A DNA stretch of 64,000 nucleotides from Mytilus trossulus. Lineage: Eukaryota. The notes beneath the pieces are model-generated. The model had not been told where the DNA came from. It made no database searches and saw only the letters and a list, made by a program, of their open reading frames with translations. Shown one piece after another: positions 4,048 to 27,376 of the stretch (within the stretch, counting starts at the first letter, position 1; each line of letters starts with the position of its first letter). The translations under genes were made by a program, and so were the position numbers. The stretch is taken from positions 25,916,001-25,980,000 of the forward strand of contig NC_086373.1 in NCBI RefSeq assembly GCF_036588685.1, given 5' to 3'.

Positions 4048-7000
4048 CAAAACAGTGTAATTTTTCATCAACTGTAATTTTACATAATTGACCCGGTCGT
4101 GGAAGGGATTTCTTCTTTCCAGCGGTTTACTTAACTTGTACAAAGGAAAAATCTACAAGAAAATGTTTTTACTGATATAGTTATATGATGTTGTGTGTTT
4201 TTTTATGCACAGTAATGTGACACTCATAATAACTGTGAAGATGTCTTTTCTTTTTAGTTCATTCGTGAAATTTTATTAGTCGTTGCGTTGTATACAATTA
4301 TGTATTTATATATTATATATCGATCGTAGAGGGTCGATTCCGCTTTGATTAAAAGACTTGGGCCATGTCTTCCTCTAACCTAGAACCTATAAATTAACAC
4401 GTTAAGACATGTATCCGTATACCATTCTAGTGCAAATCAGATTAAAATTGCTTATTGCAATATTATATGTACAGCTGGACTACAAAATTACTATTTTAAA
4501 ATGTTATGCTATGTCTAAACTAAATTATGATCGGAAACCGCCATTGCCATTTAATTTACAGTAATAAATTATTATTTAAAACACTAAGGTTTCTCTTTGG
4601 TCAGTCATAAGGTGGACCAACTCAAATATCCCCACGTCCTTTGAACTCTGTTAGATAATTGTCTCATTGAAAGTCAAACCACAACTCCTAATGTTCAAAC
4701 AATTTTTTGTGAAATTTTGGTTTAAAATATTGTTTTACTTCATTCCTGAAATTTTGATTTGAGCGCCACTGGAGAGTCATATATAGGCAAAACACACATC
4801 TGACGTTTTAAGATTATAAGCTTGTCATTTTAATGAGTATTTACAACCACTTGGTCGATGGCACTAACGTCGTCACATATGATAACACCAGCCCAGATAT
4901 TGTGTTGACATGGAATATCTTTGATACTTTGATACGGTCATTGCATATTTATTTACTGTTAATGAACCCCGAAACATCATGCTTCACCCATAAATAGATA
5001 GACGAATGGAGATTTGAGAGGTTTACGGATTTTTCATTCCGTTATTTTATATCTTATAGATAATGCATTCTACGGTTTTAGTTTGTAACACGGATTTGTT
5101 TTCTCCAATTCGATTTATGATTTTTGAATAGCGGTATTCTAATAATGCCTTTATTTCCAGTAAAGTCATACAACTTATTCTTACTTGCGATTTTTCTTTC
5201 GAATTCCTCTTGTGATTCACATATGTTTCCTCTTTTAAAGCAATAACCTTCCCGTTTTGGTTCATGAAAATCACGTCAAACCATAATTTGTAAAACGAAC
5301 ATGTTTGTAGTACGGCAACACAGTTAGAGAAGTTTATACGTAAATAATCTGTATTGACAGTTATATTATTGAAACAGCGACATAAACATCCTGTAGAATA
5401 AAATGAATGAAATTATTCATCACATTAAATCAAATGCAAAATTTCAAAATGAGTTTCATTAATAAAATTTCTCTTTAACTAATGAGACAATATAATACAC
5501 ATATGTAACCAAAAACTTGGAGTGATCTCAAGTGCTCTGGAATGATAAGCTGATCCTACTCAACAAGTAGAACTCGTAAAGCTGATCTTGTTATCACAAA
5601 CCAAGTATTTAGTCAAATTCGGTAGGTCACATTCGAGTATAAACCATCAACATGAAACCAGATCTGAAGTATTTTCAAGCAACAAAAGAGGTATGATAAT
5701 CATAAATGTTGTCTCCTTTTACAATAAAGTTGATTTTTCCTATTATTTTTTTTTTGCATTGGATGGGAAAATCTTGTTGATTTTTTTTTTAACGTTTTGA
5801 AATGTAATTTGATTATCATTTGATATAGCAATATCCGCATTTCTAATAGATATAGGAAGATGTGGTGTGAGTGCCAATGAGACAACTCTCCATCCAAATA
5901 ACAATTTAAAAATTAAACCATTATAGGTTAAAGTACGGCCTTCAACACGGAGCCTTGGCTCACACCGAACAACAAGCTATAAAGGGCCCCAAAATTACTA
6001 GTGTAAAACCATTCAAACGGGAAAACCAACGGTCTAATCTATATAAACAAAACGAGAAACGAGAAACACGTATATATAACATAAACAAACGACAACTACT
6101 GTACATCAGATTCCTGACTTAGGACAGGTGCAAACATTTGCAGCGGGATTAAACGTTTTAATGGGCCCAAACCTTCTCCCTTTTTCTGAAACAATAGCAT
6201 AACATCACAACATATAAAAACATACGATAAAATATCAATTAGCAGACTTAACTCAATCAAAAAACGTATGATTACACAAAGACTAAATAAGTGTCACTGA
6301 CCCCATTAAATTTCCTCGATAACAGTTTTCGATGTTTTCCTTTATATCAAAAAGGCACTATAGAAAAATGGCAAACAGTATAAGGAAAGAAATTAAGAAG
6401 AATAATTTTGCAAATTAGAATTTCTTTACCTTTCAGATTGTATCCTGGTGTTTGACACGTCCTGTTCTCTGGAATGAAACACTGATTTTCGTTATGTCCA
6501 AAGACTAAAAATATAAAATAATGCTTATGAGACATGCATTTTCAACAAAAAAGGGTCTTTTTGTTTAGCTCTTGCTTAGTAAACATTGGGTCTACAATTT
6601 TATACATTATAAATTTTCTTCCAGAAAAAAAGTTGTGTGCTATGAACAATGAAAGCATTCTGATACTTTCAACCTACGATGAACGCTTAACGTAATAGTT
6701 TTTTCACTACAGTAAGTAACTATCTTTGAATAAAAGCTGTTCGGATGTCAGTCGTAGTTTTTTTTCTAAAATAAAGTGCTTTAAAATGAATAGATGAAAG
6801 ATTGTAAACAGCTTCTATAATTATCAAATACAATTTTCTTGGTTGGTAATTAAATATTAAGGAAATACAAACATCTGAATTTGTACATTTCGAATCTTGA
6901 ATATGAAACTAGTGGTTTCTTTAGAGATTGTATTTTGATAAGTTGAATTTGATTTTCCTTGATGTTTCCTATACAACTCATAACTTATCTACGTATTCGA

Positions 7001-7237
7001 ACCTCCCAATGGTTTAAATGTTTGGGTTTGAACGTATCTGGTAAAGGTAAATGATTTTAAATGCAGAAAAAATAGGCTCGGTTGTACAATATTTATGAAG
7101 CGTTGTTTACATTTGTTAAAAGTTTTAACAGTAAAATTATAAACATCTATTTAATTTACTTGTTAGGTTTCATTGCACCCAAAATAACGAAAATTACCTG
7201 ATATAAGAAGGCTAGAAATGATCACAATCCGCAACAT
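4048..7237 (-). CDS. Cys-rich receptor-family paralogue C (signal peptide plus ectodomain; 3' end not found in window)
   Basis: Exons 7237-7198, 6504-6430, 5390-5185, 4152-4048, all GT-AG with phases 1,1,0,0 as in the two paralogues. 142 aa: MLRIVIISSLLISVFG|HNENQCFIPENRTCQTPGYNLKGCLCRCFNN...CVAVLQTCSFYKLWFDV...IFPLYKL...KLQLMKNYTVL. Confidence 0.8.
4755..4970 (+). repeat. Decayed hammerhead-retrozyme-type repeat
   Basis: GAGCGCCACTGGAGAGTCATATATAGGCAAAACACACATCTGACG is a mutated version of the type I HHR core (CTGATGAG..GAAAC..GTC). Related copies at about 17145, 18496, 18561 and 22026. Confidence 0.5.
5845..6285 (+). repeat. Abundant interspersed SINE-like repeat (~430 bp), young copy
   Basis: Near-identical inverted copy at about 47160-47575. 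Older partial copies at about 13070-13200, 14995-15240, 30710-31060 and 48045-48170 share the AAGATGTGGT..GCCAATGAGACAACTCTCCA motif. Confidence 0.75.
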
Positions 7238-7860
7238 GACTTATATCAGAAGACACAAAAATTCTTCATAAAATCTTATTATCCTCAGACACTGAAATGT
7301 CAAATCGTTTTCCTCACATTTTGTGGCTCCATTTGCATCCGCTAAAACAAAATGTGTTCCTTAAAAGTTATAAAAAATCCATTTCAACTCATTATACATA
7401 ATAATTATAGTGCAGTTGTTTACAGAATGAGCCTATGCTAATCCTCGTTGTAGTTTTTTTATTTTTCATTCATCAAAATAAAGCTTGTTTTAAATCTCAA
7501 ACCAAAAATAACAAATGCAGATATTTTATTTAATTACTAATGGTGTGTTTTCAATCTTTCTAAATATCTGCTTCGTTTTATTGTCACAGTTATACAAACT
7601 TTCAACAAAACAATTAAACAGAGCGTTCAAAGTTTCCATTTATGAACAATTTTCTTTTGTTAAGAGACAATCATTTGTTTGTTTTTAAAAGGTGTCAGAT
7701 TATTATTGTTTTTGATTATATTCCCTTTAAACCTTTCCAATTGTGTATATAATGATCATATATTTCTGAATTACAACATTACGTAATAAAAAAGTTAATA
7801 TTATGCTTATATTATGCACTGTTGTGATATTTCTTGATATCTTTTTATTACATATATTGT

Positions 7861-8012: not shown

Positions 8013-10990
8013 ATTAATTTCAGACCATTATGCATATTTGAATCAAAATCGTCATTTGATTTTGTTTGAAAGATATCATATTGTCTTCTTGACAATAACA
8101 ACATATTACTTTTTATCTATCTTTTTTTTTTTTTTTTGTAATTGAAGATTATTTTCGTCAAATAATCGATCACAGATATCATTTGTTTCAAAACGTTTAA
8201 CGATATCCTGAAATTCATTACATGACGTCACAAAGTAAATCGGATTTTAAATATTCTAAAAATAACCGTGCAATATGCTCTGTGCAATATGCTTTTTGCT
8301 ATCCGCCGTTTTCTCTCTACCTTCGAAAATGTGGTTTAACATGTGACTATCCCTAAACGAATCAAAGTTGTTAAAATATACGAATTAATCAAATAAACTT
8401 ATATTAACGTATATCTGTCGAAAATACACGATTGGTTTGTATGAGATTTGAAACTACGAAGAAAATCAGGGCTTGTCCGCCTTTTCCTGTTTCTTAGCGA
8501 CTATTTTTTTTATTATATTTGAATATTTGCGACAATTAAATTATATGTTTTCCTTTTTGAAAAGCCATCCATTGCTTTGACTCAAGTGGAGTATTCAAGT
8601 GGAGAATATGACGTAAACAGTAATTTAACTATAAAAGTTCGAACATATCAGAATTAGGATACTAATTGACAATATTTGTGTACTAAACAATTTGTGCTTA
8701 AGTAAATTTGTAAGACCTTTTTTTATATCATAATATGACAAACTCTTACTCTTACAGTAATATTTAATAAATATTATTATGATTGCAGATCTATTACGTC
8801 TGTTCAATTCATTTGAGAAAATAAAACAACGATTGAATAATGGTAGAGATTCTTGACATATCTTAAATAACATTTGGCTTTACTTTAGGTGCTTTTGGTT
8901 TGGATCACGTGTAAACTTTGTATACGGTTTTGGATTTGAACTTTCTATTGTTTTAGCTTATAGCTTCATTTATTTGACTTTGGTTGTCGATTTGCTCATC
9001 TTTTGCAAACAAATAATACTGTTCGTGTATTTACTATCACTTTTTTAAAACATTTTTAAGTGGTAAGTTAGTCCTATAGGGTATAATCAACCCCGGAGAC
9101 AACTTCTGTTATAATTATAGGTTGAAAATACGGGGGTGTCGTGTTTGAATTTGACTGTTTCAAGATTTCGAAATAATTTTTTATTAAGAAATGTATCTTC
9201 TTCATTCATTGTTCTGTTCGTTGTCCGGGTTTAGCTTACTTTCGGTCATTTATGAATTTATCAGTTCTTCAACTTTTTCATTATGTTTAGGTCTTATATA
9301 TTTTGATCTCGAGCATCAATTAACAAAATACTGACGTTATTTATTATATGTATTAAGTGTTACAGTGTTCTTTTTATTTGCCGTTGTATATTTCCATTCT
9401 TTACTATTTAGTCTATCCTTTTGGCGTGGCAAGTAATTTGTACATCCTGCCATTGTGTTATTATGCTATGGTTATTTTTGTATTGTTCTTTTCCATTTTG
9501 ACTATGTGCTTTAAGCGTGTCTGTATGACTTTTTTCTTTGTTGACCGAGTTGTTCGTTTTAATAGTGATTGAGATTGTGATTATTAATATAGCATCGACT
9601 GATGTATCTACATTTTTGACAAAGTTACCTATTATGTCTGTTTGTTTTGCTCACTCATTGTAGTTGATATAATGGAATTCTATGCGACTGTCATAAAATT
9701 TATGTGTTTAGCCAGCTACAACATAAGGTTTAATTAACCGTTTTTCTGCAAAAAGACATGCCTGTGCCAAGTCAAGAATAATGTGTTTGTTTTGGTTGCG
9801 CTTCAGTGATTTTGTTGTTTCGTTGTTTTCCTCTCAGAGTTGATGTGTTTCCCTCGGTTTTAATATGTAATCCGGATTTGTTTTCTCTCAACCGATTTAT
9901 GACTTTAGAACAGCGGTAAACTAATGTGCCTTTATTTAGGCATTTTAATTTGCCTTTTGTTCTCTGTTTGACTTTTTCTTGAAGTTTTTTTTTCTTAAAT
10001 TATTTTACCTGTAATAATTAGATTGGTTTAGAGTTTTGTGTCTTTGAAACATATTCAGTATTTCTATTCTCATAAAGGATTCAAAATATAAAATAACAAA
10101 AATACCGAACCCCGAGGATAATTTAAAACAAAAAGTCTCTAATCAAATAGGAAAATCAAAAGCTGAAACACCTGTATTGATAAATACACATATTCATGGT
10201 ATTATATCCTGTTTTATCTTGCAAAATCACAAACAGTGCATGAAAATCGTCATAAAAGGGCAATAACTCAATAACATAATAATTTTACTTATTTGTAGAT
10301 TTTAATGGTTATTTTTGTTCGAAGCTTCTCTTAAGATATTATGATTTTCAAGATAAAAGATGAAAATAAAAAAAAATCCGATATTTGCGCCATTTAAGTA
10401 AAGGAAGTCATCTGACAGCTTTGATGTCATTAATCATTAGGTACATGTGATCATTTTAAACATTTTCTTTTCGTCAGATTTTTCTATCAAAAGCGGTTTT
10501 TGAGAAAAGAAACGAAAATTGTATTTTAATCCTGAGTACTATTTTTAGTCATGTCGGCCATTTATGAAACAGACGGGGTTATCAGATGCATTTTAAACTG
10601 GATACCCCATAGATTTTGGCCAACTTGGTTAAATTTTGGTTCAATAGTTTGAGAGGTATTGATCTTTGTAAAAATTAAAGGACAATGGAATACTAAAGAT
10701 GATAGACGACGGATCAGAAAATTTAACATTGCCATTCAGCCCTATAATATAAAGCAGGTTGGCATTTTAAAAGAAAACAACTGAAAAGGATTTAATTTGA
10801 AGTCTATTATTTCGCCGTTATAGGCTTCGGGTAGAACACGTATATTACAAAACGAGGCGAAAACAAAACATGAGTAATTTCATGAAAAATAAAGAAAGCA
10901 TGCATGGGTTAATATTTGTTTTATTTTCAACAATTTCTATGATCAGCTGTTTTACAATTTTTGTATGGATACATTTTTGAATATTTGACT

Positions 10991-13900
10991 TTAGTTTCTA
11001 GAATTTACTATATGAACTTGTTGTAAGGCACTCGAATATTCTATGTTATTATCGAGTAACTGACGTGCAGACCGTCGCCATTTACAGACAATAATAAACG
11101 CATTAACAGCCATCACGAACACAGCAAGAATACCCAGTATAATCGGAACAATCGGCAAGTTTTCTGGTCCATTTCGTTTTGCATTGATAGGACTTGTGCT
11201 GGTCTCCACTGGTATTTCTAAAAGCAATAACATGAAACTAAATCATATCAAAACATATTCACATCTTGACTTGAACATTGGCTTAACAAAAAATATATAT
11301 GCAATTCTCAATAAAGAACCTTTAGCTATCTTATGATATCTCACGCCACCAATGTGAAGGTGGAAAACCTTTTGATGGCCTGATAGCTTAGGTTTTGTTT
11401 CGGTTTAATTCAAGAAAGGTTTAAATTCGGTTTCGTTTTTCTGCAGTCATATTGTGCTAAAAAATCCTTTATCGACATTGACTTACCCTAGTGACTTAAA
11501 AATCTTGAACATTTTCTGCTCAAACAGTCTATTTATTTTCGGTAACTTTGGTCTTATCTCGTATGTAGTGACATCCATTTCAATATGGATATGTAATATC
11601 TAGCGCCTTAAATTCGATTTCTTTTAAAATTCTAGTCTTTTTTTCAAAGCTATGACCTTCACCTTTTAGGAATATGTTTATATATCACTTCACACACATA
11701 GACATCAAAATCAATTGAGATCTTGCTTTCGTATCCCAATGTTAACGTTTGTTTAGTATTTGATATAAAGTATTGTTCTTACCTATAAGACCTATAGATG
11801 CACAATTGTCGTCACAAATAGTGCAACCTGGCTGAATCTAAAACGATAATGTAATGTTCAAGGTATGTATCTCTATATCCCTATATAATCAGTTAATCTA
11901 TTGTTTTTTTATTTGGTCGGGATGTTGTCTCTTTGATACATTCCCCATTTCCATTCTCAATTTTAGCTCTTATATTGGGAAGATTTGACTAACAACTATT
12001 AGATATTTATATCTTAATGCTGATTTTTGCACTTTGTCGGTTAAGTAGGATATTCTTAACTTCGGATCAAGCAATACTTTGTGCTGAAAATTAAATAGAC
12101 AATTTGTTGTGTTGTACAACTTTGTGTTGCGTGTGCGCTTATTAGAACGAATCCGACACAATTTTCTCGTTTATTTGATATTTTGGATGTATAGGTTCTG
12201 GCCATAACTGTACAAGGCTCGTCTAGAAAACAAACATTTGTTTAACAAGTAGTTTACTACAAAAGAATACATGTTTTGTCCGATAGATTTATTCAAAAGA
12301 AGCAAACTATTGTGTTTTAATGCTTGTATAAATTGATTGGATATAAGGTTTATGTTTTTCTTATATCATTTTCACTTAAAAAGTAAAATTACAAAAATAC
12401 TGAACTCCGAGGGAAATTCAAAAATGAAAGTCCCTTATCAAATGGTAAAATCAAAAGCTCAAACACATGAAACTAATGGATAACAACGGTCAAATTTTCT
12501 GATTTGGTACAGTCATTTTCTAATGGAAAAGGGATGGATTAAATCTGGTTTCAAAGCTAACTAAACCTCTCACTTGTATAACAGTCGCATAAAATAATAC
12601 CAATGTCTCTTTATATTTGTTGTATTGAATTAATCCCTGAAACCATTGTAATCTTTATCATTATGTTATTGCCTTAATTTAAAATATTTTATTGTAAACG
12701 TATCCTTACTAAGACTGAATACGGTCTGTCTAGCTTCAGTTTACTATCCAGTGATCTTTTTAATCCATTTAAAAGCAATATCTGCAACAACAAAATGAAA
12801 GGTTATCGCTACCAAGAACACATTTTATTCAAGAACGGATAACATATGTTGACAAAGTAAATAGCTCTCATAATTTTTTTTTATTAATGCAATAGTAATG
12901 CGAAAATGCAATAAACATTATAAATTCATCATAAAACTTGAAAAAAAACTATGCTTACTATTTTTGGAGTGTGCAAAATTCTTTGCCTGTTTAAGATAAA
13001 TAACGTGCCTTTGGTTATCTTTTTAAATCGGATAACTGTTTGACTGTTCAACTGTTTGATTGGTTTTAAAACTTACTATGCGGTGTTGGTTTTAGCTCAT
13101 TTTTGAAGGCCGTACGATTACCTATATATGTTTGACTTCTACGCCATTCGGTCTTAAGTGGAGAGTTGTCTCATTGGCAATCATACCACTAGTTCTTATT
13201 TTAATTTTGATAATTTCACCTTACAACCTTGCCCACTGCTAACAAACATTAAAAACTGCGAAAAATAAAATCACCTTCGACCCGTTATCGGTTCTGTAGT
13301 TTGACATTATTGTCGTTTTATTGACAATATTTCCATTCTCGTCATGTATCTCTAACTCAAACCAAAATTTGTAGATATCACATTGTTCTAGAAGCTCCAT
13401 GCATGGAAAATATGATATTGTCAAGTCTATTCTGTTTATCGTAACATTCAAGCATTCACAAAAACAAACTGAAATAAATAAAAATTAATAACTAAACTGT
13501 AATAGCTTTACTTTTATTGGGATACAAGTTTTCTTTCATATATGCCCTTATAAACTAATAAGTTAAGATGTGTAAGTGATGAATACCATAATAAACAGAA
13601 ATATTTTGGAGTATTGAGCTACTCAGTAATAACTGCGTTAATTATAAATTCGATAGTTCACAAATCAAGGCGACTGCTTAAAACACATTTAGTTAACCAA
13701 CCTATACTGTCTACATCTGGTGGCATACAGGAAACGTTTCTTGTCAACGTACATGAATGCACTCCTGCGGCTAAAATATCAACAAAACAGGAGTTTTATA
13801 CCATGTAGTAATACGTTCAAAAAACGGAGTTGAATGTAAATCATCACGAAAGAATTACTAATAATAATTATGATGCAACCTTTGAATGTCTGTTCATAAG

Positions 13901-15655
13901 ACGGTCCGTTGCGTAGTTTGTAATTGGAAATCCTTAATGCACGGCTGGTAATCTACACATGCAGAACATTTGGTTCTGCAATGAAAACCGTGAGAGGATC
14001 TTCCGGTTGTGCTTGAGTAGAGTAATTATCACCGCTTCAAAAGGTATGTACATTTCTAAATCGTAATTTTCTTATTCAACTGATCGAAATATTGAAAATC
14101 GGGAATGCTATGCTGTGGTGAATACCACTTTAACAAAGAGATGCATGTACCATTTACTGTTGTACGTGTAGTTGAACTCCTACAAAATTAGTTGCCACAC
14201 GAGAAATTGCATAAAAAAGTTTTTTTTACGGTCAATTGATATGAATGTCGTTTTTGGTGGCGTGTACGCTGTCCAGTGTTGTTAGACATCTTTATAAATC
14301 TAAAAACTACATTTTTTCATTATTTTATGCGTGAGGGGATCGGTTCTGATTGAGGACATCGTGAATGCGTGAGCGGACGTGAAATCATATCTTAAGGTCT
14401 CTTAATATAATTATTTCAAAATTTAAATGTGACTTTTTTATGCAATTTCTCGTGGAGCAACTAGTTTTGTAGGAGTTCAACTCCACGTACAACAATAAAT
14501 AATACATTATCGCTTGGTTAAAGTATTCACCACAGCTTAGCATTCTTCGATTTTCAATATTTTGATCAACTGAATAAGAAAATTACGATTTAGAAATGTA
14601 CATACCTTTTGAAGCGGTGATAATTACTCTACTCAAGCACAACCGGAAGATCCTCTCACGGTTTTCATTGTAGAACCAAATGTTCTGCGTGTGTAGATTA
14701 CCAGCCGTGTAATGGTCGCAACGGTAGAACATAGTTTACAATACTTAATTGGAAAATCTCATTTTAACCACATTTGAAATCATTGTGAAATTGAAACCAA
14801 ACTAAAAATGTATGATAATTGGATAGAATCCTTTCATTTATTTATATCCGATAGTGTCTCTTTTTATTTTTAAAAATGGAAACGTAACTAAGAATATATC
14901 GGTTTATTCATAAATGAATTATTGCACAAAAAAAACAATTGACAAGTGATATTTAGTTGAGTCCTCATTTGACAAAATTTCACTTTTCTTTTTAGGTCGT
15001 TTGTTTATGTGTTACATATTTATTTTTCGTTCATTTTTTTTTATATAAATAAGGCCGTTAGTTTTCTCGTTTGACTTGTTTTACATTGTCATATCGGGGC
15101 CTTTTATAGCTGACTATGCGGTATGAGCTTTGCTCATTGTTGAAGACCGTATGGTGACCAATAGTTGTTAATGTCTGTGTCATTTTTGGTCTCTTGTAGA
15201 CAGTTGTCTCATTGGCAATCATACTACATCTTCTTTTTTATATTTACCTTGATCCATTGTAAATTTTGATTTTGAAAAATGTCTTTCCGACAACAGTTTT
15301 CTTCAGTAGCTCAATAGTATATATTGAAAGTTTTGAAACTCATAGGTTACATTAATTGATATATCTATACTGTTTTATGTTGTGTTGTTTGCCTGTTTGA
15401 CTTTTTTTGTTTCATTTTCAACCATGGCGTTGTAAATTTAATTTCGACTCATATGTTTTTTGCGCCTCTCTTTTTATATCTATTATATGCATTATCGAAA
15501 ATATCCTTTCTTCGAACAAATTAGACTAGTATCTGGTGTTTTTTTTTAATTTAAAAGTTATAAGGTTATACCATTATATATAATATATACATACATACAA
15601 TGCTGGCAATAGCAGCTATACTACTCAGAACCATAGTAATTATATGTGTGTTCAT
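10991..15655 (-). CDS. Cys-rich single-pass receptor paralogue B, short cytoplasmic tail (225 aa; putative IL-17R-like decoy or co-receptor)
   Basis: Exons 15655-15595, 13770-13702, 13468-13275, 12781-12710, 11837-11783, 11217-10991 give 678 nt in frame. Signal MNTHIITMVLSSIAAIASIVSA; ectodomain ends IQPGCTICDDNC; TM IVPIILGILAVFVMAVNAFIIVC; tail KWRR..NNIEYSSALQQVHIVNSRN*. Internal exon lengths 69/194/72/55 nt are identical to paralogue A. Confidence 0.85.
12378..12595 (+). repeat. Interspersed repeat family (AAAATACTGAACTCCGAGG..AAAATCAAAAGCTC)
   Basis: Related copies at about 10085-10170, 21265-21435 (inverted) and 54800-54930 (inverted). Confidence 0.6.
13940..14709. mobile_element. Foldback MITE with CAC..GTG termini and 5-bp TSD (Transib/RAG-like-type signature)
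   Basis: About 280-bp inverted arms (13940-14220 and 14432-14709), termini CACGGCTGGTAATCTACAC / GTGTAGATTACCAGCCGTG, TAATG duplicated at 13935-13939 and 14710-14714. Lies in intron 1 of paralogue B. Confidence 0.8.
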
Positions 15656-17887
15656 GGTATCTTGTCATTCTTGTCATTCATCTTGTCAAGTGAATAAACG
15701 TTTATATGCCTATAAACACTAACAAAATTCAGCATGAAAATGTATTCAAAACATGGAGATTGTCCAATCGATAACGTGTTGTGACTGTGACTTTGTCTAC
15801 ATGTCCGCGATTACGCAAAACAGCGTAAAATTGTTTCCCGTGTTATTGACGTTGTGTGGTAGTGAAGTGAGAGGAGATAGATATGTTGACGAATGAACAG
15901 AAAAACTTAAATGGTTTTAACTGTCGGAGTGTATGCCGTGTGTTTTGTATTCTATGTACGAATGTATCGTCTGTATAATACTTGCAGTGTGAATTAATCG
16001 TGACTGTTATGTTCTACAAAGATGGTGTTTAGTTATAAATTATGAACGCTCGGAATTCTACGTTAACACCAACATCATTGAAAAGCATGGAAAAGTTGTG
16101 CAAGATATGGCAAAGGAAATCTATGCCATTGACAGCAAAGATACAATGATTTCAATTTTAATTAGAATATCATTCACAGAATAAAACAGCTATAATGTTA
16201 TTTCCTGTCACCACAAAACACAATGATTACTGCGACGGTCTAAATGTATCACCAATATCGATCCTGTACTTGTAAACCCTTATATTCAAGAATAAGAGCC
16301 TTATAATATTGTACACAAGACGAGCGTGACCTATTTGAATTGCATGTTAAAATGAAAATGTTTCGCGATGTTTTTTTTCATTACATGTCTAAATAAATCT
16401 GAATTTCAATAAAAATGTTGATATAAAATAAGTATATGAGCAACATACGCTAAAATGCTTTTACCTGTTAGAATGACTCCATTCAAATATTTAAAACAAA
16501 ATGCTAATTACAGTATTATCCAATTTACATGTCGTTTAAAATTTCATTAGCTCTGTAGGTATTATCTATATGATAAATCAGTTTAAATATAGATAGATAA
16601 TATATTCGCAACTCTTTTTGTAATTAAATACACAATGTATCCTTTTATATCTTTTTAAATCTTGAATCTTAATTTTCAACTGTCTTTCTATTCATAAATA
16701 TATTACTGCAAAATGTTTATTTAGTGAACAATATCTGATTATTCTTTACATGCAAATGCATGTGTATGATACATCTTAAATGTTGTCCTTAAGATTATGT
16801 TTTGCTTATACATAAACGGAATTTTATTCTTAAATAAAATGTTTTTGTATATTCATATAAGTTACTTTAGGTTTTCAAGTATTATTCAATTATGTTCCGT
16901 GCTTTTTCCAACAGAAACACATTTTGAACTGTTATTCGTGTTGAATGTTCAAAATGAAAACCTCTCATATTTCTGAGAACTGCAATGATACTAGATGCGT
17001 TGTAGGAAATACCATCAATACCTTGTTTGTCTTTTTTTTTTTAGAACTGATGTTTAAAAAAGATTAAAAAACAACTTTCGGGAATTTTTGCTTGCAATGC
17101 TACTCAACTTCTTGTAGAATTTGGCCTTTTAATTGTCTTTATTTGAGCAGCACTAGTGAGTCATATGAAGATGTAACGCTCGTTTGGCGTAACATATTAT
17201 CGGTCTGGAATGTTTCTTGAGCTTTTATTAAACCTTTGTTTTTGCTAATGAACTGGTTTTTTTATACAAAAGTTGATAGTACTTCTACATGTGTTCGGTA
17301 TATATTAAATGTTGAAAGGATTGGATAGTCTTCATTGATTCATATATATGTTTGTACTGATAGCAATAGTTAAATTGTGTAATTCGCAAGCACGATACCA
17401 TGAATTCCAAAAAATACTCTTTTTGTGTTTTATCACTTTGCCAATCTATTGTAAAAGCAAACAAAACACTTTCATTAGTTGATCCGATATGTTTGGTCAA
17501 GTACATATTTCAACGGAACAATGTACGGGGATATTTTACAAAGATACTAGTATGTACGCGCTCACAAGTTCGGATAGTGACTGATATTTTCTCCTTGACA
17601 TGACTATACAAAGTCATAAATATGACAGTTGTTTTTAACTCGATCCGTTGATTGATGAAGTTTGGTTTAGTTAGTTTTCTCCTTTCTGAATTTATCTTAG
17701 AATTCGGTATTTTTGTTTTACTTTTTTTTCTACATCCGTATATAAACTATTTTGATCTTGCTACTAGTAACCTAAAACCTTCTGTAAAACTTTAAAGTCT
17801 TTTGTATTTTTTCTGCTGTTTTATTGATCTAAAGCTCATATACGGTATAATTACAATTCTATCTTAAACAGTACAACATGATTATCG

Positions 17888-18274
17888 AATAGACAACTTT
17901 CGAGTTCGATGCATTTCCGTCAAAAACTCTGGTTTTAGTGAACGCCATTTGTGCGTTTAGGGGTGTCGTCACTTCCATTCCAATGTTGAGCAAGTTGTTG
18001 GAAAACTATAATTCTATATTGTACGAATTATTCTGCTAATTGAGTTCTCAAAATTGACAATCAGCATTGCTGTCATTAGGGAATTGTCTTTAAGTACCTA
18101 CAGAACAACCATTATTTCTAGTTTATCCTGCACAATGACGATCACTATGACGCTTGATGAACGTAAATAGTGCAGGGATACAGGCGACCCCCTCTATCTG
18201 GTAAATGACGTCATAAAGGCGCGTATAATTGACGAGTTTTTTCCGGTGATGGATGAACTCGAAAGTGGACTATT
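17888..18274. mobile_element. MITE family with AATAGAC..TTCGAGTTC TIRs, copy 1
   Basis: AATAGACAACTTTCGAGTTC / GAACTCGAAAGTGGACTATT; homologous to 41076-41461 and 42238-42552 in the opposite orientation. Confidence 0.8.
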
Positions 18275-18464
18275 TATATGAGCTACAACTTGAGTATATA
18301 AAAAAACAGGAAATGCAAATAAACACCTGTGTTAAATTTTGCATTAAAACAAACGAAAGACTCGACAACGTGCAGTAAATAACCGACGAAAAGTATACTG
18401 CTCTGTGCTAAAGATCTATAATTAAGTTTTTCTTAGGTATCATATCTCAATTCATACTCACGAA

Positions 18465-18800
18465 ATAAAAGATACCAGAACTATAATTTTGCAATCCAGA
18501 CATGCGTTTCGTCTACCAAATTAACTCATCATATATACCAGGATTGAAATTTTGTATTTACGCCAGATGAGCGTTTGGTCAGTAAAAGACTCATTAGTTA
18601 CAAAGACCGTCTTCTACCAAGAGGCTTATTAGTAAATCAAACAAGATAATAAGGGTAAATGAAGTAAGAAGTTGACGAGCATTGTAGACAAAAAATTCGG
18701 CAACATTTTGCCAATACAGTTAAAGTATATATTCGAGGGGAAAGAAATCATCGTTAATCTTTTAAACAATTCAAAGTTTTGGTAAACAATTTATAATTAT
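18465..18800 (-). repeat. Degenerate tandem hammerhead-ribozyme retrozyme remnant
   Basis: Minus strand 18531-18496 = TGATGAGTTAATTTGGTAGACGAAACGCATGTCTGG (HHR core lacking C3 and stem I); second copy 18598-18561 = CTAATGAGTCTTTTACTGACCAAACGCTCATCTGGCG. Confidence 0.6.
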
Positions 18801-19624
18801 GACGATGATAATTGATAGGATATTAAGCTTTGTCACATACAATGAGATACAAAGTGTACATTGAAGGATAAATAACTTCTAGACACTATTGTAATATCAG
18901 AAATATTAGAAACAGAAAGAAAACAAATGAGCTTTGAATACAACAACACAAACTGCTGCTTTCAATAATTTATTATTTATTCTTAATGTATTTAATGGCA
19001 TTTAAACAAATAACAACAGAAACTAATAACTTTTAATGATTAATCGGGAGTGTTTATTTGTATTGGTGTATATGATTGTCGCCACAATTTGAAATTATTA
19101 TTGGATGCAAGTACAGTTTGTTAGCGACGAAGAGTAAACATTTATTACAAAATAACTATATAAATTTTCACACTCAGTTTCCTCGTTCCATACACTTGTA
19201 TCTGAACGATATTCCATTTTCATGGTTTGTTTAATTTTGGTAAGTTTCATTTTGGGTTCAAAGTACAGACGATGGGACTTTAATGTGGCATATCACTCAA
19301 GTGAAACTCTAAATTAATGACGTATCAAATGTGAATCTGACGACATAAATTAGCCGTTGAAAAACGGATTTAAAAAAATGCAAAGTAGTCTTTTATCTAT
19401 TTAATGTTTTAGATGTCAGTCTGATTATAGCATTACACATTAATGAAAGAAGGCATTAGAGCATATTTTTTGTTTTTATTGGTTACAATGATAATACAGT
19501 AAGATAAAATAATAAACTGAGCATAAAGGGTTGACTTTAAGATAAATTAGATTTAAGAAAGATCTTAAATGCTGATATTAAAATTCATAAAATGCCATTG
19601 TATCTGCTGTCTTTAACAATTCTG

Positions 19625-22600
19625 TTAAATGCCGACTAATTCATTGCTTTCTATTCGATTTAAAAAATTATTAAATTTATTAACCCTTTCTTTGCATGTA
19701 CCAGAAAGATCATCAAATTTCTGTAAAATGCTCTTGAAAACATTAAAAGTGTCAAAATTAAGAATTAGTAGTTCTAAATCCGGTTCAAACGACATAAAAT
19801 ATGTAGAAGGATAAAGATCTTCATCTGTCATTACCTTCTTTATTAAGATTAAACATTTAGATATAGGTCCATTATTATTGCAACTCCAAAACATATCTTT
19901 TACTACAATGTTATTAAGAATGACTATGTTTGTTCTATTTTCCAAAATTTTGTCGTGAAATGAGTATCCGGTTTGATTTTCAACGACAAAGGCTGCAGGA
20001 TCTAATACTTCAATCTTGAAAACAGTGGTGGGTATGAATGATAGTAACTCGTGAATTAATATCTTGTCAGAATTCAATGATATAATATTTATGGTCTTTT
20101 TAGATTTGTTTAGTTTGGTTTCTTGTTCTCCTTGCCCTGATATTATCTGAATTTGCCTTGAAAATGGAATATCGATGCGGTCCATTGAGTGCATTGTTGG
20201 TTTATTTTCGACGTCTTTTCCCACACTTGAATATTGTGTGTGTATGTTGTTCAGTGGTGAATCTTGATCAGTCTTCTTGTATCTACAGACCAAAATCAAA
20301 GTAACAACTGCGGCCATTATTGCAACAAAAACGCTCATAACAACTGCCAGATACAACCATTTTCTTGAATCCTCATGTTCGATACTGGCAGGACTTGTTA
20401 CCACAGCCGGTGGTATTTCTAAAAATTAAAACAAATTAATATTTTCCTTTGCTTTCATATAACTTAGGGAATGTACTACTATTTCATTGTAAAATGTTGA
20501 ACAATGCATATCAATTTTACACTGAGTACGATAGATTTGTACAATCCATCATCAGTGCACCTTTAGAATTAAGGACTCCCCACTTCAATTTTTTTTTACT
20601 ACTTGCTCTAGTTGGGAGGGCATTATTTTTATTCCCAAGTCACGTTTGTGGTAAAGGATGGCTTCTTAGTTTATGGTGGGGAATGCATAACAACAAGAGA
20701 CGATATTCTTGTCGACGAATCCGTCCATGTTGTCAAAACATTTAGAGTATAACTATATTAATCAGACTCAAAATTCTATAAACTGAATATTACTGCATTT
20801 GATATTTCGAGCACAGATTGTATACCCCTGAAACTGCGTATAGTTTTATGACCAAAGTCCCCGGGTTTTTTTTTAATCAGTACTTGGGTTACAAAATTTG
20901 TGTTCAAGACAACAATATCTGTATTTTTGTTTGATGATTTTTTATTCTGCTTAAGAAAAATTTATAACTGCAAGGCCTGGTCTCGAACCTTCTCCAATTC
21001 CATCGGTCGTTGTTTGTTACCAAAATTAGTTTCTTCTTCATTGAGGTGTGATATTTGAACATCGTTAAATTATTGTTGCCTTAATTTAATGTCTAAACAG
21101 CTTGAGAAACATCTTACCCATATCCGGCATGAATTCACAAAAATCATCACAACTGGTACATCTTGGTTGAATCTAAAGAGGGGAAAACATTAATTGATAA
21201 GACCTAAGTTTATCTTATCCTATAGTTAGTAATTGTCATTAATTTTATATTATAATCTATTGTACGTTTAATCCACCATTTTCTATATTTGAAAATGCCT
21301 GTACCAAGTCAGGAATATGACAGTTCTTGTCCATTCGTTTTTGTTACGTTTTGTTGTTTGATTTTGCCATGTGATTTTGGACTTTCCGATTTGATTTTCC
21401 TCTAAGTTCAGTATTTTTGTTATTTTACTTTTTGTATTGATTTTGTGATTAATTGTTTAAACAAAAACAGTATATTTATTACCCAATTGGCTAATACGAT
21501 AAATGTCATGGAAAGTTAACATCACTACTCAAAGATAGCAGCATTTCAATGAAAATATAACGATTCAAAACAGTAATAACCATTGATAACAAATACAGAA
21601 TATCATACTATGATAACTGAATCATGAGGGTAGTTATTTGCGTCACATACATATAGTTTCCGAAAAAAATATGTTGACAATTAAGAAATTTTGTATAAAT
21701 CTTACCGATACTGTGTACCGTTTGTTCAATTTCAATTTTTGATGAAGCGAATCTGTTAACTCGTACAAAGGAAATATCTGAAATGGAGGGGAAATATTGT
21801 TGTTAAACAAATCAAGTAATAGCCTAATATTACCAGACCAATAAAAAGCACTTCTGAGTTGACATGTTTATCATTGAAATTGTCAACGTTTGCAAAACTT
21901 TGAATTGTTCGAAATTGTAAAGGATTATCTACCCTAGAAAAAGATTATCGTAGCTGTGGTCTTTTAAACTTTAAGTTTTCGGCATTTTAAGTCTTCAATG
22001 CTCACTAATTCGTACTTTTTTATTCCAGCGTCACTTATGGGTCTGTTGTTATTGAAATGTGCGTCTGGCGTATAAAAGTTTTGTTTATTGGAAAAGTAAG
22101 TGATCAGATTCAACATGCAAGAGAACGTATATAGCAATTTTACCTGACCATATCGGAAAATAGGTATTTAGTCGGATCGTAACACGTATTTGAGATTTGT
22201 TTAAACCGGTTTTCGATAAAAAAAAAAATATATACGAAGAAATGTCAAAATGTTTAGGACTTAATTAAATCCGTATTTCGGTAATATTGTGCAAGCATAC
22301 GATTTTTATTGCGTCTTTCACTTTGAGAAGCGAATAATCTGTAACTACTTTATTCAAATATTCTGTAAAAACGTTAATTTTGAGCTATGAAAGTCAAGTG
22401 GCTCGAGAATTTTTCTGAGGAAATTTTAAAAAAGTGCAAAAAAATATTTTTACAGTGGGTTAGCTTTCATTAGTCTTCACTATCAGAATCATCATTGAAG
22501 GTGGAGCACGATTGCGCAGTTATTTAATTATATGGATGTGCCATTTGTATGATGAGTGACATTCCGTGGTATTATGTGCCAATTCGAAAAAGTTATCCGA

Positions 22601-25350
22601 GAATTGTCTCCCCTTAACAGGTTTATTTTTTTTATAATTATGTTTAGGTTTCTGATATAATTTTGAATAATTACAAAATGAATCAATGTAATATATTTCA
22701 GTTTTTGTTATTGATGTATCAAAACAATTGATGTACGAATATAATTTCATAAATTTGAAACGTTAAAAATTTTTACATACCAATATAAAGAACTTTTTAT
22801 CATTTTTGAAATAGACTATGAATGAAAATTGCATGAAATTGCTTCCCTTCATGATAGATTGATAGGGAAATGAGTATAATGACAAAAAAAAAGATAGGGA
22901 AATGAGCCAGAGTTATCTATTAGTGATGACAGAGAGGGACTAGCAAGCAAATTTTAATTGTAGCTAGTTCATTGTTAAAACAATGTTCCAATATAAACGA
23001 ATGTTATTTTATACAAATATAAGGACTTAGTTAGCTAAATCTACAAATTTTATTTGAAAATATGAATTTTTATTGCAATAGATTAATATGCTATATAATA
23101 ATACTGTACATCACATATATACTTCAACATTGTCATAACGCGGAAGGTATGTCACGCATTTAAACCAGGTTCAACCCAGCATATTATAAAATGTTCTGTA
23201 CCAAGTCAAGAATATGGCAGTTGTTATCAAATAGTTCGTCACTATGTTTGTTAGCGTTTGTGTTTGGTGTACTTTGGTGTTCCTGTTTCTCTCGGTTTTT
23301 GGTTAGTAACCCGGATTTATTTTCTTTCGTCGATTTGTGAATTCTAAATACCGATATACAACTGTTGCATTTATTTAACTTTGCACAGTTACTTTTGGGA
23401 AAGAGAATCAAGAGTTTTGATCACTCAATGCTATCCTTCAGTTACATTTTTCTTTTATTTAGATTTTCCCGGTTGGCAATCTGAGTCATGAAAATTACCT
23501 CCGATTTATTTTCACTTTTATGATTAATGTAGACCTCTGTAGTGCCGACGATTTGTTCCTCTTCATCTTGAAACCAAACCTCCAACCATAATTTATAGAA
23601 ATTGCATTTTTGCAAAAGTTTTTCACAAGGTGAGAATATAACTTCCAAATATTCTCTGTTGATTTTAGCATCCAAACATCTGCAGAAACACACTACAATA
23701 AAAGTATAAATCAATAGAGATAAAAAGTAAATCAACAAAAATATATAGCTACAAAGAAGATTCTAAACAGAAAATCCAATAACAAATGGCAAAATCTAAA
23801 TCTCAAAAACATCAAATAAATGAAAAGCAACTGTCATATCTTAATATGCTGTAATACAGCAGCTGTATCGAGTTATATTCGATTTATTTGAATATTTTAG
23901 TTTTTTGCATCGTAAACATACCTCTTGCATTTAAGCTGGGATGCGTACAGTCAATTTTGGTTATTGCAGAACATAAGTGAGCTCCGACAGCTGAAAACAG
24001 ATGAAATCAGTGGAAGTGGAATAAAATTCATTTGAAAAGTAAGGTCCCATTAAATCATTTTTTTTTTTAAATTTGGATGAATATTGATATGCATATGTCA
24101 TACAAATAAAAAAAGCTTTACCAGTATATGTACAAGAATTGAAAAATAATAATGATGTTTGCCCGTTGCTTTAATAAATCACTTGTGTTTCTATTATGAT
24201 GATAACCCCAAATCAGGCATAGAATGATAGGGCTTAAAAAAAAAACCCGCAAGCACCTTTTTGAATTACATGGTTTTTAAGAACGTATAGTTAGTTTGCT
24301 CTGTTACCAGTCAGTAGTCCTGTCTTTAATTAACCAGAATTTTTTTTTCAAACGTCTTTATCATATTTAAGATTTAAGAAGTGAAGACACGTTTATCCAC
24401 CATACAGGCATGTTGTTTCTCATTGGGCATATGAACAATATGCTATAAAGACTATTTATTATAAATTTGATCGATCAGTCAAATCAGTGAATATGACAAT
24501 TCTGGTGATTCATGTTTCTTTATTTCTTTCTGTTATATCTCATTTCTTTATAATAAGTAATAATTCTTATATGATTTGCATATTAGGGAATACGTTGATA
24601 TGATTGGTTATGAAAACTTCCTGTAGCTGATCTTGAAGTTGGTTATGTGGGAGTGTGGAAAAATAGATTCCCTTTCTCCAATTTTAAAGAATTATAAAGA
24701 TCAAACGTCTTTTCAAAGGAATTTATTGGTGTTTAAAAGAGGAACGAAAGATACCAGAGGGACAGTCAAACACATATATCGAAAATAAACTGACAACGCC
24801 ATGGCTAAAAATGAAAAAAACAAACAGACAAACAATAGTACACATGACACAACATAGAAAACTGAAAATAAGCAACACGAACCCCACAAAACAACTAGGG
24901 GTGCTCTCAGGTGCCTCGGAAGGGTAAAAAATCCGGCTCCACATGTGGTACCCGTCGTGTTGCTTATGTGATAACAAATTCAGTAGATAGTCTATAAATT
25001 CGGTACGTAACATTCATGAAAGGGAAGGTAAACTGAACCAAGTCGCTCACAAACATATCATAAAAGTCCTTTAGACTTTTAATTGTTTGTGAGTGAATTG
25101 GTCGAGTTTATACACCAATAAATTCCAAAAGGCGATTAATCCTATGCTAAATTTATTTCAGCTTGCCACTTATGTGCATGCCAGTTGTTACACTATAATA
25201 TGAAACATAAAGGATATATACATTTACTTTATTAACAAAATTTCTGTTTCAATTTCCACAAATATCTATCTTTGACTTACCTCCAGAATAAGCAATTATG
25301 AATACAGCAACAACAAAATACATGTTGATTTTGCCTTCCATCTGTGTCAT
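19625..25350 (-). CDS. Cys-rich single-pass receptor paralogue A with long cytoplasmic domain (417 aa; putative divergent IL-17-receptor-like / SEFIR-like)
   Basis: Exons 25350-25281, 23990-23922, 23692-23499, 21777-21706, 21172-21118, 20418-19625 give 1254 nt in frame. Signal ..MYFVVAVFIIAYSGAVG; ectodomain ends IQPRCTSCDDFC; TM WLYLAVVMSVFVAIMAAVVTLILVC; about 220-aa cytoplasmic region. Gene structure is high confidence; family assignment is tentative. Confidence 0.85.
24735..25030 (+). repeat. Interspersed repeat (GATACCAGAGGGACAGTCAAA..AACGCCATGGCTAAAA family)
   Basis: Second copy at about 28805-29005 adjoins a Penelope RT fragment, suggesting a retroelement-end origin. Confidence 0.65.
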
Positions 25351-25987: not shown

Positions 25988-27315
25988 CAGGGATTGGGTA
26001 ATTGAAAATGTAATGGTAATTGAGTGTAATGCATTACAATTTTCCATGTAATAGAATGTAATTTTTAATTGAGCATTTTTAGTTTTTAATTACATGTAAT
26101 GGTAATTTAATTAATTGCATTGAAAAAAGCAAGCAATGCTCAATTACTTTCGAATTGCATTTCAATTAAATGTACTTTTATGGTGTTAAAGTTGAAACCA
26201 TTTTACGAGTTTTGAACAGCGGTGTACTACTGTTGCCTTTATTCAAGGATATGTGTTCAATAATATGATTGTACAATTATATTCATTTTTCAAATATTGA
26301 TATCACATACTTTTTTGAAATATGAAGTCTATAATCTATTTCTGAAGTTTTTATATTATTTATTTAACCTACATTAAAAAAAAATTATAGTCTTATAATT
26401 TTTCTTTAAAATGTGAGAATCATATATTTTTGTTGTTCAGTTTTAAAGAAAACAAAAACAAAAAAAGTGTCACAGTGAAAAATCTTTCTTAGACAGTTCA
26501 TTTAGAATTTAAAATCACTGCACACAACAATTTTGTCAAATTTTACTAATAGACACAAAATGATCATAGAAATAGAAATTAACAGCTGTAAAAACAAACA
26601 GCAATTAATCAGATTAAATTGTCATGGGGCAATGCAAAATAAATCATGTATTGTATCTAATTAGCAAAATATTGCTAATATTTAGACATTATACACATTG
26701 TTTGTACTAAAAAATATTTTTGATATTATGACAAGCACACTTTTTAATATTTTTAAAGTAAAAATAAAAACTTAATTTATTTATAATTTCTTTATTTACA
26801 TTATGTTTAAATTCAATGACTTCATTTCTGAAATGTCAAAATACCCCTTGGTGTATTGGCAAGTTAATCATTGTTAATAGGAACAAATTATGATGATCTT
26901 CTGATCATTGAACTGCCATGTTAGCTCCTGTCGAAAGACTATTTAAAATTGCTGTCAAAATGTTCAGACCTGAGAGATTAAGACTTAAATAACTTATAAT
27001 TATCAAATGCACTGCTTAAACTATGCTTACATGAATATTTTACAAATGCATTATTATAAAAAGTATACATCAATAAAATTGTTAAAAAAAATTATGATGA
27101 AATGTAATAAGTGATTTAATTAAGTACTTTAGTAAAGTAATTGTAATTTAATTAATTACATTTCAAAAACTGTGTAATGTGTAATTAGTGTAATTGATCA
27201 TTTTAGCAATGTAATGTGTAATTGATCATTTTAGCAATGTAATGTGTAATTGATCATTTTAGCAATGTAATGTGTAATTGATCATTTTAGCAATGTAATG
27301 TGTAATTAGTGTAAT
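25988..27315. mobile_element. Non-autonomous DNA-transposon-like element with GTAAT-rich ends and 28-bp tandem repeat
   Basis: Starts CAGGGATTGGGTAATTG. GTAATTGATCATTTTAGCAATGTAATGT occurs about 4 times at 27190-27302, and one more unit at 28552-28579 resumes after the LTR insertion. Confidence 0.5.
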
Positions 27316-27376
27316 TGTTGAGAAACCCACGAACATTGGCGTGACGTCCTGCGGACGTCGGTAAGGAATTTTCATT

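What the first reader, a model, noticed from the sequence alone, without database searches (positions are those of the whole stretch)
10991..20418. Paired long-tail and short-tail receptors: signalling receptor next to a putative decoy
Seen: A and B stay homologous past the TM (CRYKK..LNNIHTQYSSV vs CKWRR..DNNIEYSSAL). B then stops after about 30 cytoplasmic residues, with AATAAA about 70 nt downstream, while A continues about 190 aa more. B is otherwise intact, which argues for function rather than decay. Inference: an activating/decoy pair analogous to IL-1R1/IL-1R2.
Basis: partly seen in the sequence, partly recalled or inferred. Interest (0 to 1): 0.7.

Follow-up and report, generated by a model that had tools for sequence, protein, structure and literature searches.

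The report
Mussel cluster of IL-17-receptor-like short-tail receptors
A mussel gene for an intact cell-surface receptor stops just inside the membrane, as seen in spliced RNA and in a sister species, and sits in a cluster of eight related gene copies (two long-tailed, six short-tailed) that likely descend from IL-17 receptors, where the short ones would likely damp signalling as decoys.

Summary
A (414 aa) and B (225 aa) are intact six-exon paralogs with equal exon sizes and ten ectodomain cysteines at the same positions. B stops 31 residues after the membrane; A runs 220. One spliced RNA contig crosses B's stop unchanged, M. edulis orthologs stop at the same place, and no tail exon lies downstream. 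It is not a pair, though: a 120-kb Mytilus cluster holds two long-tailed genes (A, C) and six short-tailed copies (B, D, E x3, F). The IL-1R analogy is the wrong family. The ectodomain is predicted as one FN3 domain, with the same intron phases as the membrane-proximal domain of mussel IL-17 receptors. The long tail is predicted as a TIR/SEFIR-type fold, but it fails every SEFIR sequence test and lacks the C-terminal extension that anchors ACT1 in human IL-17RA. So A is not shown to be activating and looks more like a co-receptor or modulator. B as decoy is the best guess (about 40%); the ligand is untested, and B keeps a conserved tyrosine motif. Verdict: a real, apparently undescribed, divergent IL-17R-like cluster; a new variant of a known kind.

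The parts
15595..15655 (-). Gene B exon 1, hydrophobic N-terminus (likely signal peptide)
   Evidence: equals the start of P0008
13702..13770 (-). Gene B exon 2, 23-aa two-cysteine module (phase 1-1)
13275..13468 (-). Gene B exon 3, first part of the predicted FN3 domain (phase 1-0)
   Evidence: covered by run X1 record 3
12710..12781 (-). Gene B exon 4 (phase 0-0), ends inside the predicted FN3 strand F
   Evidence: 24-nt loose end of the X1 contig matches it
11783..11837 (-). Gene B exon 5 (phase 0-1), end of the FN3 domain with three cysteines
   Evidence: spliced joint 11783-11217
10991..11217 (-). Gene B exon 6: stalk, TM (about 11158-11087), 31-aa tail, TAA stop at 10993-10991
11024..11044 (-). 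B tail tyrosine motif IEYSSAL, homologous to A's TQYSSV
   Evidence: present in 4 of 4 B-type tails examined
10920..10925 (-). AATAAA candidate polyadenylation signal of B
   Evidence: use not shown
25281..25341 (-). Gene A exon 1 (likely signal peptide; an upstream in-frame ATG at 25350 is used in the RefSeq model P0001)
23922..23990 (-). Gene A exon 2, two-cysteine module (skipped in RefSeq isoform X2, P0001)
23499..23692 (-). Gene A exon 3, first part of the predicted FN3 domain
   Evidence: X1 record 6, bases 180-373
21706..21777 (-). Gene A exon 4
21118..21172 (-). Gene A exon 5
19625..20418 (-). Gene A exon 6: stalk, TM (about 20359-20288), ITIM/ITSM-consensus TQYSSV (about 20239-20222), linker, tail domain, stop
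19637..20101 (-). A tail domain, predicted TIR/SEFIR-type five-stranded alpha/beta fold with no C-terminal extension
   Evidence: model built on the A-type homolog P0002
7198..7237 (-). Gene C (second long-tailed paralog, 394 aa) exon 1
   Evidence: X1 record 1 covers 7198-7452
6430..6504 (-). Gene C exon 2
5185..5390 (-). Gene C exon 3
4048..4152 (-). Gene C exon 4; exons 5 and 6 lie left of the window start (about 153-204 and 1437-2143 bases before it)

Best explanation
B is an intact, spliced, single-pass membrane receptor gene that ends 31 residues inside the cell, one of six short-tailed copies beside two long-tailed genes in a Mytilus cluster likely derived from an IL-17 receptor, and it likely works as a decoy or dominant-negative chain that would bind a cytokine or a partner chain without adding a SEFIR-type domain. 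Shown: the gene models, the stop in spliced RNA and in M. edulis, the cluster make-up, and the shared intron phases with canonical mussel IL-17 receptors. Predicted: one FN3 ectodomain, and a TIR/SEFIR-type fold in the tails of A and C. Inferred: an ancestral IL-17R-like gene kept only its membrane-proximal FN3 domain, was duplicated in tandem, and lost the tail probably more than once. In human IL-17 signalling, receptor SEFIR domains must gather as a hetero-tetramer to seed ACT1 filaments (PMC12828022). A tail-less chain taking a place on the ligand would therefore dilute that assembly. A and C, having no extension after the domain, would act like the co-receptors RB/RC or as modulators, not as the main signalling chain.
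For: Stop is real: X1 contig joins 11783 to 11217 over a GT-AG intron and runs 42 nt past the stop with two substitutions, neither at the stop. Three M. edulis models and three unnamed fragments end at the same residue (P0009, P0010, P0024; P0018, P0025, P0026). All 7 GT sites after the TM score at most 3.3, against 5.9-13.0 for the 19 modelled donors on which the matrix was trained. The tail profile finds nothing in 3.6 kb below the stop, and only A and C in 254 kb. B versus M. edulis B: TM 24 of 24, tail 27 of 31, FN3 79 of 100. IL-17R link: Atlas feature search with A gives SEFIR/IL-17R clusters, best 0.93 with 202 shared features, 10 of 10 family hits agreeing. The wide structural search ranks TIR domains at Z 10.6 (rmsd 3.4, 137 aligned) and 10.4, and chain E of the IL-17RA/RB/ACT1 filament at Z 10.3 (rmsd 4.3, 144 aligned). 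Foldseek gives FN3 cytokine-receptor domains at E about 6e-4. 4 of 4 reconstructed canonical mussel IL-17R genes share the 1/0/0/1 intron phases, including the intron inside the Y-x-V-x|V-x-P strand. Ectodomain profile score was 19.6; 0 of 100 column shuffles reached it. UniRef names the M. coruscus C ortholog 'SEFIR domain-containing protein'. A, B and C all have contigs in run X1.
Against: No ligand data at all. [quoted passage not shown] No Pfam SEFIR, TIR or IL17R match in 21 proteins; the SEFIR scan of the genome found 11 matches, none here. Tail versus mussel SEFIR: hhalign E 0.28-0.35; own-profile scores were reached by 65-332 of 500 shuffles. Receiver domains (Z 9.7) tie with the TIR/SEFIR hits, and the second-look search ranks one first. 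The ectodomain profile match covers only 15 columns at probability 3.9%. The Atlas search with B gave only leads under 0.9 and no IL-17R row. B keeps a conserved tyrosine motif, so it may not be inert. The RNA evidence is one contig at depth about 5 in 1 of 7 runs laid. Named B orthologs were found only in M. trossulus and M. edulis.
Confidence: 0.4

Rival explanations
1. B is a positive accessory chain: it captures or presents ligand to a long-tailed chain (A, C or a canonical IL-17R), as short-tailed alpha chains of class I cytokine receptors do (recalled), and so increases signalling.
For: Four short-tailed types are kept across species: D in M. galloprovincialis, E in M. edulis and M. galloprovincialis, F in M. 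californianus. This could reflect a ligand-specificity set matched to the 36 IL-17 matches in this genome. A one-domain ectodomain may need a partner to complete a binding site. B's Atlas leads are IL-13Ra1-like and fn3 receptors at 0.84-0.85 (leads only).
Against: In the human IL-17 complex the co-receptor's SEFIR is needed to prime IL-17RA (PMC12828022), so a tail-less chain has no known positive role there.
Confidence: 0.2
2. B signals or traffics through its own tyrosine motif: it is a scavenging or inhibitory receptor, and A, which carries a full ITIM/ITSM consensus at the homologous place, is inhibitory rather than activating.
For: The hexamer [TIV]QYS[SN]V fits the ITIM/ITSM pattern in 7 of 7 A-type sequences, and IEYSSAL is unchanged in 4 of 4 B-type tails. 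B's last exon is better conserved than its ectodomain.
Against: B has Ala at Y+3 and fails the consensus (0 of 4). C, D, E and F lack the motif. Six-letter motifs are weak evidence, the consensus is recalled, and no shuffle control was run for it.
Confidence: 0.17
3. The family has left the IL-17 pathway. It is a fast-evolving, Mytilus-restricted set of single-FN3 surface receptors for another ligand (microbial, self-recognition or hormone), and the tail fold is a TIR-type adaptor dock or a relic.
For: The profile search of 1.84 billion representatives found only 14 proteins; all named ones that were checked are Mytilus, and the weakest (P0023) matches only in the TM region. Paralogs are 18-35% identical to B. 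The first FN3 domain is missing and the SEFIR sequence tests fail. E is recently triplicated.
Against: Intron phases, Atlas features and fold all point to IL-17R ancestry, which makes IL-17-type ligands or partners the default.
Confidence: 0.17
4. B is a recently truncated duplicate of an A-like gene, drifting towards loss, or the stop is a private allele or an assembly error.
For: B is known by name only from two sister species. An A-like M. galloprovincialis model (P0007) also ends early inside the tail, so truncations do arise in this family.
Against: All six exons, splice sites and ten cysteines are intact despite 54% divergence from A in the FN3 region. The stop is shared with M. edulis and seen in RNA. 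No relic of the tail survives below the stop: DNA alignment score 34 against a shuffle mean of 41, which argues for an old loss.
Confidence: 0.06

Closest known systems
Canonical mussel IL-17 receptors IL17R-A to F (PMC8353272; passages and section 12 read)
   Same: Single-pass; membrane-proximal FN3-type domain encoded by exons of phase 1/0/0/1 with the same intron inside strand F; flavodoxin-like tail fold; gene F keeps the phase-1 intron after the TM.
   Different: They are 566-874 aa with Pfam SEFIR E-values of 1e-12 or better and long tails after the SEFIR. A and C are 414 and 394 aa, have one FN3 domain, carry TM and tail in one exon, miss the SEFIR profile and have no extension. B, D, E and F have no tail domain.
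Human co-receptors IL-17RB/RC (PMC12828022; abstract, passages, Discussion read)
   Same: SEFIR-type domain followed by fewer than 30 residues, as in A and C.
   Different: The co-receptor tryptophan (W368 in RB) has no visible counterpart in A or C in a weak alignment; ectodomains have two or more FnIII domains.
IL-17REL (bioRxiv 10.64898/2026.04.13.718218; passages read, citing a report that it may act as an IL-17 decoy)
   Same: An IL-17R-family relative proposed to compete for ligand.
   Different: A single vertebrate gene; secreted and without a TM (recalled). Here several membrane-anchored short-tailed types sit in tandem with long-tailed paralogs.
IL-1R1 / IL-1R2
   Same: Tandem paralogs, one with a TIR-class tail and one with a tail of about 30 residues.
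   Different: IL-1 receptors have three Ig domains (recalled); here one predicted FN3 domain. The likeness is one of design, not of family.
Database label RSE/TYRO3 on the M. edulis B orthologs
   Same: FN3-containing single-pass protein.
   Different: No kinase domain in 205-229 aa and no Pfam kinase match; the label is a mis-annotation.

Membership tests
IL-17 receptor family | Cytoplasmic SEFIR domain recognised by sequence profile (Pfam PF08357) | tested here: not met
   0 of 21 proteins; genome scan has 11 matches, none in the cluster; own mussel SEFIR profile is no better than shuffles. A UniRef automatic name says SEFIR for one C ortholog.
IL-17 receptor family | TIR/SEFIR superfamily fold in the long tail | tested here: inconclusive
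   Model with pLDDT about 70-85 in the tail; top three rows are TIR/SEFIR (Z 10.3-10.6), but receiver domains at Z 9.7 tie; Atlas 0.93 SEFIR.
IL-17 receptor family | Two FnIII domains (D1 and D2), both contacting the cytokine | tested here: not met
   One FN3 domain plus a 23-aa two-cysteine exon; feature taken from PMC9637376.
IL-17 receptor family | Exon architecture of the membrane-proximal domain as in mussel IL-17Rs | tested here: met
   Phases 1/0/0/1 in 4 of 4 canonical genes rebuilt (a fifth could not be completed) and in A, B, C, D.
IL-17 receptor family | C-terminal extension (SEFEX) of the ACT1-recruiting chain | tested here: not met
   A and C end within about 10 residues of the last helix; feature from PMC12828022. 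Co-receptors also lack it.
IL-17 receptor family | Binds IL-17 and recruits ACT1/CIKS | not testable with these tools
   Needs binding assays.
IL-1 receptor family (IL-1R1/IL-1R2) | Three extracellular Ig domains (recalled) | tested here: not met
   Ectodomain of about 130 aa with one predicted FN3 sandwich; Foldseek rows are FN3 cytokine-receptor domains.
IL-1 receptor family (IL-1R1/IL-1R2) | TIR domain in the signalling member | tested here: inconclusive
   No Pfam TIR match; fold is compatible, with SIGIRR, IL-18Rb and IL-1RAcP TIRs at Z 8.1-8.6.
Decoy receptor (functional class) | Intact ectodomain and TM without a signalling domain | tested here: met
Decoy receptor (functional class) | Binds the same ligand as the signalling receptor and lowers its output | not testable with these tools
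   No ligand is known.
Paired activating/inhibitory receptors (ITIM/ITAM type, recalled) | Long-tailed member with an ITIM consensus | tested here: met
   Pattern present in 7 of 7 A-type and 0 of 2 C-type tails; motif level only, no chance control.
Paired activating/inhibitory receptors (ITIM/ITAM type, recalled) | Short-tailed member with a charged TM residue for an ITAM adaptor | tested here: not met
   TM segments of B, D, E and F carry no charged residue.

The most novel reading that the evidence does not exclude
Mussels have built, from half of an IL-17 receptor, a tandem battery of single-FN3 receptors: four membrane-anchored decoy or specificity chains and two degenerate-SEFIR modulators. 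They buffer and sort the 30-odd IL-17 cytokines of the genome. This would be an invertebrate negative-regulation layer for IL-17 that SEFIR-based surveys cannot see.
Probability: 0.25. Interest if true: 0.7.

Novelty: new variant of a known kind. Interest (0 to 1): 0.45.

Why it matters
IL-17 is greatly expanded in mussels (29-42 genes per genome) while only six receptor types were catalogued, by their SEFIR domain (PMC8353272). This cluster adds six gene types that such a screen misses. If they bind IL-17s, they offer a testable answer to how few receptors handle many cytokines, and give an invertebrate parallel to IL-1R2 and IL-17REL decoys. If not, they remain an uncharacterised, fast-evolving surface-receptor family of a farmed bivalve, with database names (TYRO3/RSE) that need correcting.

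Tried and rejected
Pfam scans of exons and 21 full proteins: no curated-threshold match. PDB sequence search with the 31-sequence profile: nothing below E 0.31. First AlphaFold model on 7 sequences: pLDDT 42, used only as a weak hint of FN3. Profile comparison of the tail with mussel SEFIRs: not significant locally (E 0.28-0.35) or globally (83 of 100 shuffles as good), nor by hmmsearch. Relic of the tail below the stops of B, D and E: none; the shuffle control returned no scores for the observed or shuffled sequence and is uninformative, so only the hmmsearch table and the DNA alignment control count. Run search: no RNA holder listed on record, all seven runs are guessed RNA. X4, X6 and X7 had no contig on B exons 5-6, which is no proof of absence; pieces of X2, X3 and X5 there were not shown in the cut table. 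Complex prediction of the B ectodomain with an IL-17 dimer was not available; no verdict. Tree: two changes of tail state, with B beside A/C/G (83/91, not starred), but one origin of the short tails is not rejected (p-AU 0.129), and long branches meet. A third long-tailed type (P0012/P0014, unnamed sources) has no own gene in this genome by two searches. No cluster member was found outside this locus in five own-genome protein searches, which score only the best candidates. Literature searches found no description of the cluster; the library lacks most subscription journals, and the supplements of PMC8353272 (receptor sequence files) were not read. No earlier findings of this scan matched.
Full report
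Observation. The window is AT-rich animal DNA. Protein searches name the two genes as uncharacterized Mytilus trossulus LOC134707261 (A) and LOC134707256 (B). I rebuilt both from the DNA. Each has six coding exons on the minus strand with GT-AG introns, exons 2-5 are 69, 194, 72 and 55 nt in both, and the ten ectodomain cysteines and the juxtamembrane cysteine fall at identical residue numbers. A is 414 aa with a 220-aa cytoplasmic part; B is 225 aa with 31. The FN3 regions are 46 of 100 identical and the tails 10 of 31. AATAAA lies 65 nt after B's stop.

Is B's stop real? Four lines say yes. (1) In run X1 (coded, guessed RNA) one 348-nt contig at depth about 5 joins exon 5 to exon 6 across the predicted intron, carries 24 nt of exon 4, and runs 42 nt past the stop. 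It has two substitutions, one silent and one Cys to Tyr, neither at the stop. This is 1 of 7 runs laid, and the contig ends before the AATAAA. The same run holds a 1428-nt contig for A whose gap between exon 3 and exon 6 is exactly 72+55 nt, and a 1526-nt contig that starts in C's first exon. (2) Three M. edulis models and three unnamed fragments end at the same residue. Consecutive accessions on one M. edulis contig put B next to C there too. (3) No GT after the TM scores like a donor (at most 3.3 against 5.9-13.0; the matrix was trained on those 19 donors). (4) A profile of the tail domain finds no exon or relic in the 3.6 kb below the stop, and post-stop DNA aligns to A and C no better than shuffles. 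Limit: named B orthologs come only from the two sister species (5 hits among 7995 candidates scored).

It is a cluster, not a pair. Gene C (394 aa, long tail) begins at 7237 and ends about 2.1 kb left of the window. Further left lie D (tail about 20 aa), three near-identical copies of E (tail about 17 aa; duplicated blocks 99.9% over 8.2 kb and 98.5% over 6.6 kb, so possibly recent or an assembly effect), and F on the plus strand about 90 kb out (tail about 21 aa over two exons). A profile scan of 254 kb finds eight exon-3 copies and two tail domains. The short tails of D, E and F recur in M. galloprovincialis, M. edulis and M. californianus models. A profile search of 1.84 billion representatives returned 14 proteins; the named ones checked are all Mytilus. 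In an ectodomain tree B sits with A, C and a third long type (83/91, unstarred), suggesting a separate loss of its tail, but one origin is not rejected (p-AU 0.129).

What the domains are. Pfam and PDB sequence searches are blank. The Atlas feature search with A returned SEFIR/IL-17R clusters (best 0.93; 10 of 10 family hits agree; shuffled proteins reach 0.9 in 4-10 of 100 cases). An AlphaFold model of the A-type homolog P0002 on 31 sequences (mean pLDDT 70) shows a seven-stranded ectodomain and a five-stranded alpha/beta tail. Foldseek matches the ectodomain to FN3 domains of cytokine receptors (IL-7Ra, IL-6R, IL-21R; E about 6e-4 to 1e-3). The wide structural search ranks RPS4/RRS1 TIR (Z 10.6), Cat1 TIR (10.4) and chain E of the IL-17RA/RB/ACT1 filament (10.3, 144 aligned; the residue range fits ACT1's SEFIR in PMC12828022) first, with receiver domains tied at 9.7. 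Independent support for IL-17R ancestry comes from gene structure. Four canonical IL-17R genes of this genome, found by PF08357 and PF23608, encode their membrane-proximal domain in exons of phase 1-0 (191-203 nt), 0-0 (48 nt) and 0-1 (64-115 nt), with an intron between Y-x-V-x and V-x-P, as in A, B, C and D. The profile match covers just that strand (score 19.6; 0 of 100 shuffles; 15 columns). Against membership: the tail fails all SEFIR sequence tests, and the first FnIII domain, which also contacts ligand in human IL-17RA (PMC9637376, passages), is absent. I file the family as IL-17R-like, not as IL-17 receptors. B stops just after the strand that aligns with the first strand of the tail domain.

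How it likely works. In the human system ligand concentrates receptor SEFIR domains into a hetero-tetramer that seeds ACT1 filaments. IL-17RA's extension anchors ACT1, while co-receptors with short extensions only prime IL-17RA (PMC12828022; abstract, passages, Discussion). A and C end right after the domain, so they resemble co-receptors or modulators; 'activating receptor' is not shown. A also carries an ITIM/ITSM-consensus hexamer in 7 of 7 A-type sequences. B, with an intact ectodomain and no tail domain, would take up ligand or a partner slot without adding a SEFIR: a decoy or dominant-negative chain (0.40). Rivals are a positive accessory chain (0.20), a receptor working through its conserved tyrosine (0.17), a family that has moved to another ligand (0.17), and decay or artefact (0.06). 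No binding could be tested.

Known systems and novelty. Tail-less decoys are a known design: IL-1R2 (listing of PMC8795442; otherwise recalled) and IL-17REL (passages of bioRxiv 10.64898/2026.04.13.718218). The mussel survey lists six IL-17R types of 566-874 aa, all with SEFIR hits (PMC8353272, section 12; supplements not read), which do not fit these genes. Seven literature searches found no description of the cluster, within the limits of the library. Interest 0.45.

Noticed in passing
window 13940-14220 and 14432-14709: Inverted repeat of 282 bases at 92% identity inside B intron 1, flanking a 210-base spacer; looks like a foldback or MITE-type insertion.
   Followed up: no
window 27101-28467: Broken Pao/BEL-like gag remnant (DUF1759, E 1e-21) with tandem 28- and 41-base repeats at its edge, 2 kb upstream of gene A.
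   Followed up: partly
window 60880-63559, minus strand: LINE element with endonuclease and reverse transcriptase in two overlapping frames.
   Followed up: partly
window 57810-58931 plus strand, and L016: 373-aa low-complexity exon without a Pfam match, followed beyond the window end by MBT-repeat exons; probably one MBT-domain chromatin gene.
   Followed up: partly
L018-L020 (about 85-112 kb in window coordinates): Tandem array of about 16 near-identical 1.7-kb units, each with an intronless Ser/Thr kinase frame; 13 are full 270-aa frames and 3 are broken. The array runs to the end of the stretch fetched.
   Followed up: partly
G000:C1:104953945-104959100 (L036, L078, L079): Inside a canonical IL-17R cluster, a third set of Ig_ILCR1 and TM exons has no SEFIR exon before the next gene's ectodomain exons: a second, unrelated tail-less IL-17R candidate, or alternative 5' exons sharing the downstream SEFIR.
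   Followed up: partly
P0007 (M. galloprovincialis model): A-like protein of 285 aa that ends after the first helix of the tail domain; a frameshifted allele or model error.
   Followed up: no
P0012, P0014 (unnamed sources): A third long-tailed type of the family with no own gene found in this genome; another species or presence/absence variation.
   Followed up: partly
L014 (about 81.6-83.1 kb left of the window): Single-exon B-box/NHL (TRIM-like) frame of 505 aa between E3 and F.
   Followed up: no
window 39473-39932 and 59321-60062: Two arrays of the same roughly 170-base satellite unit.
   Followed up: no
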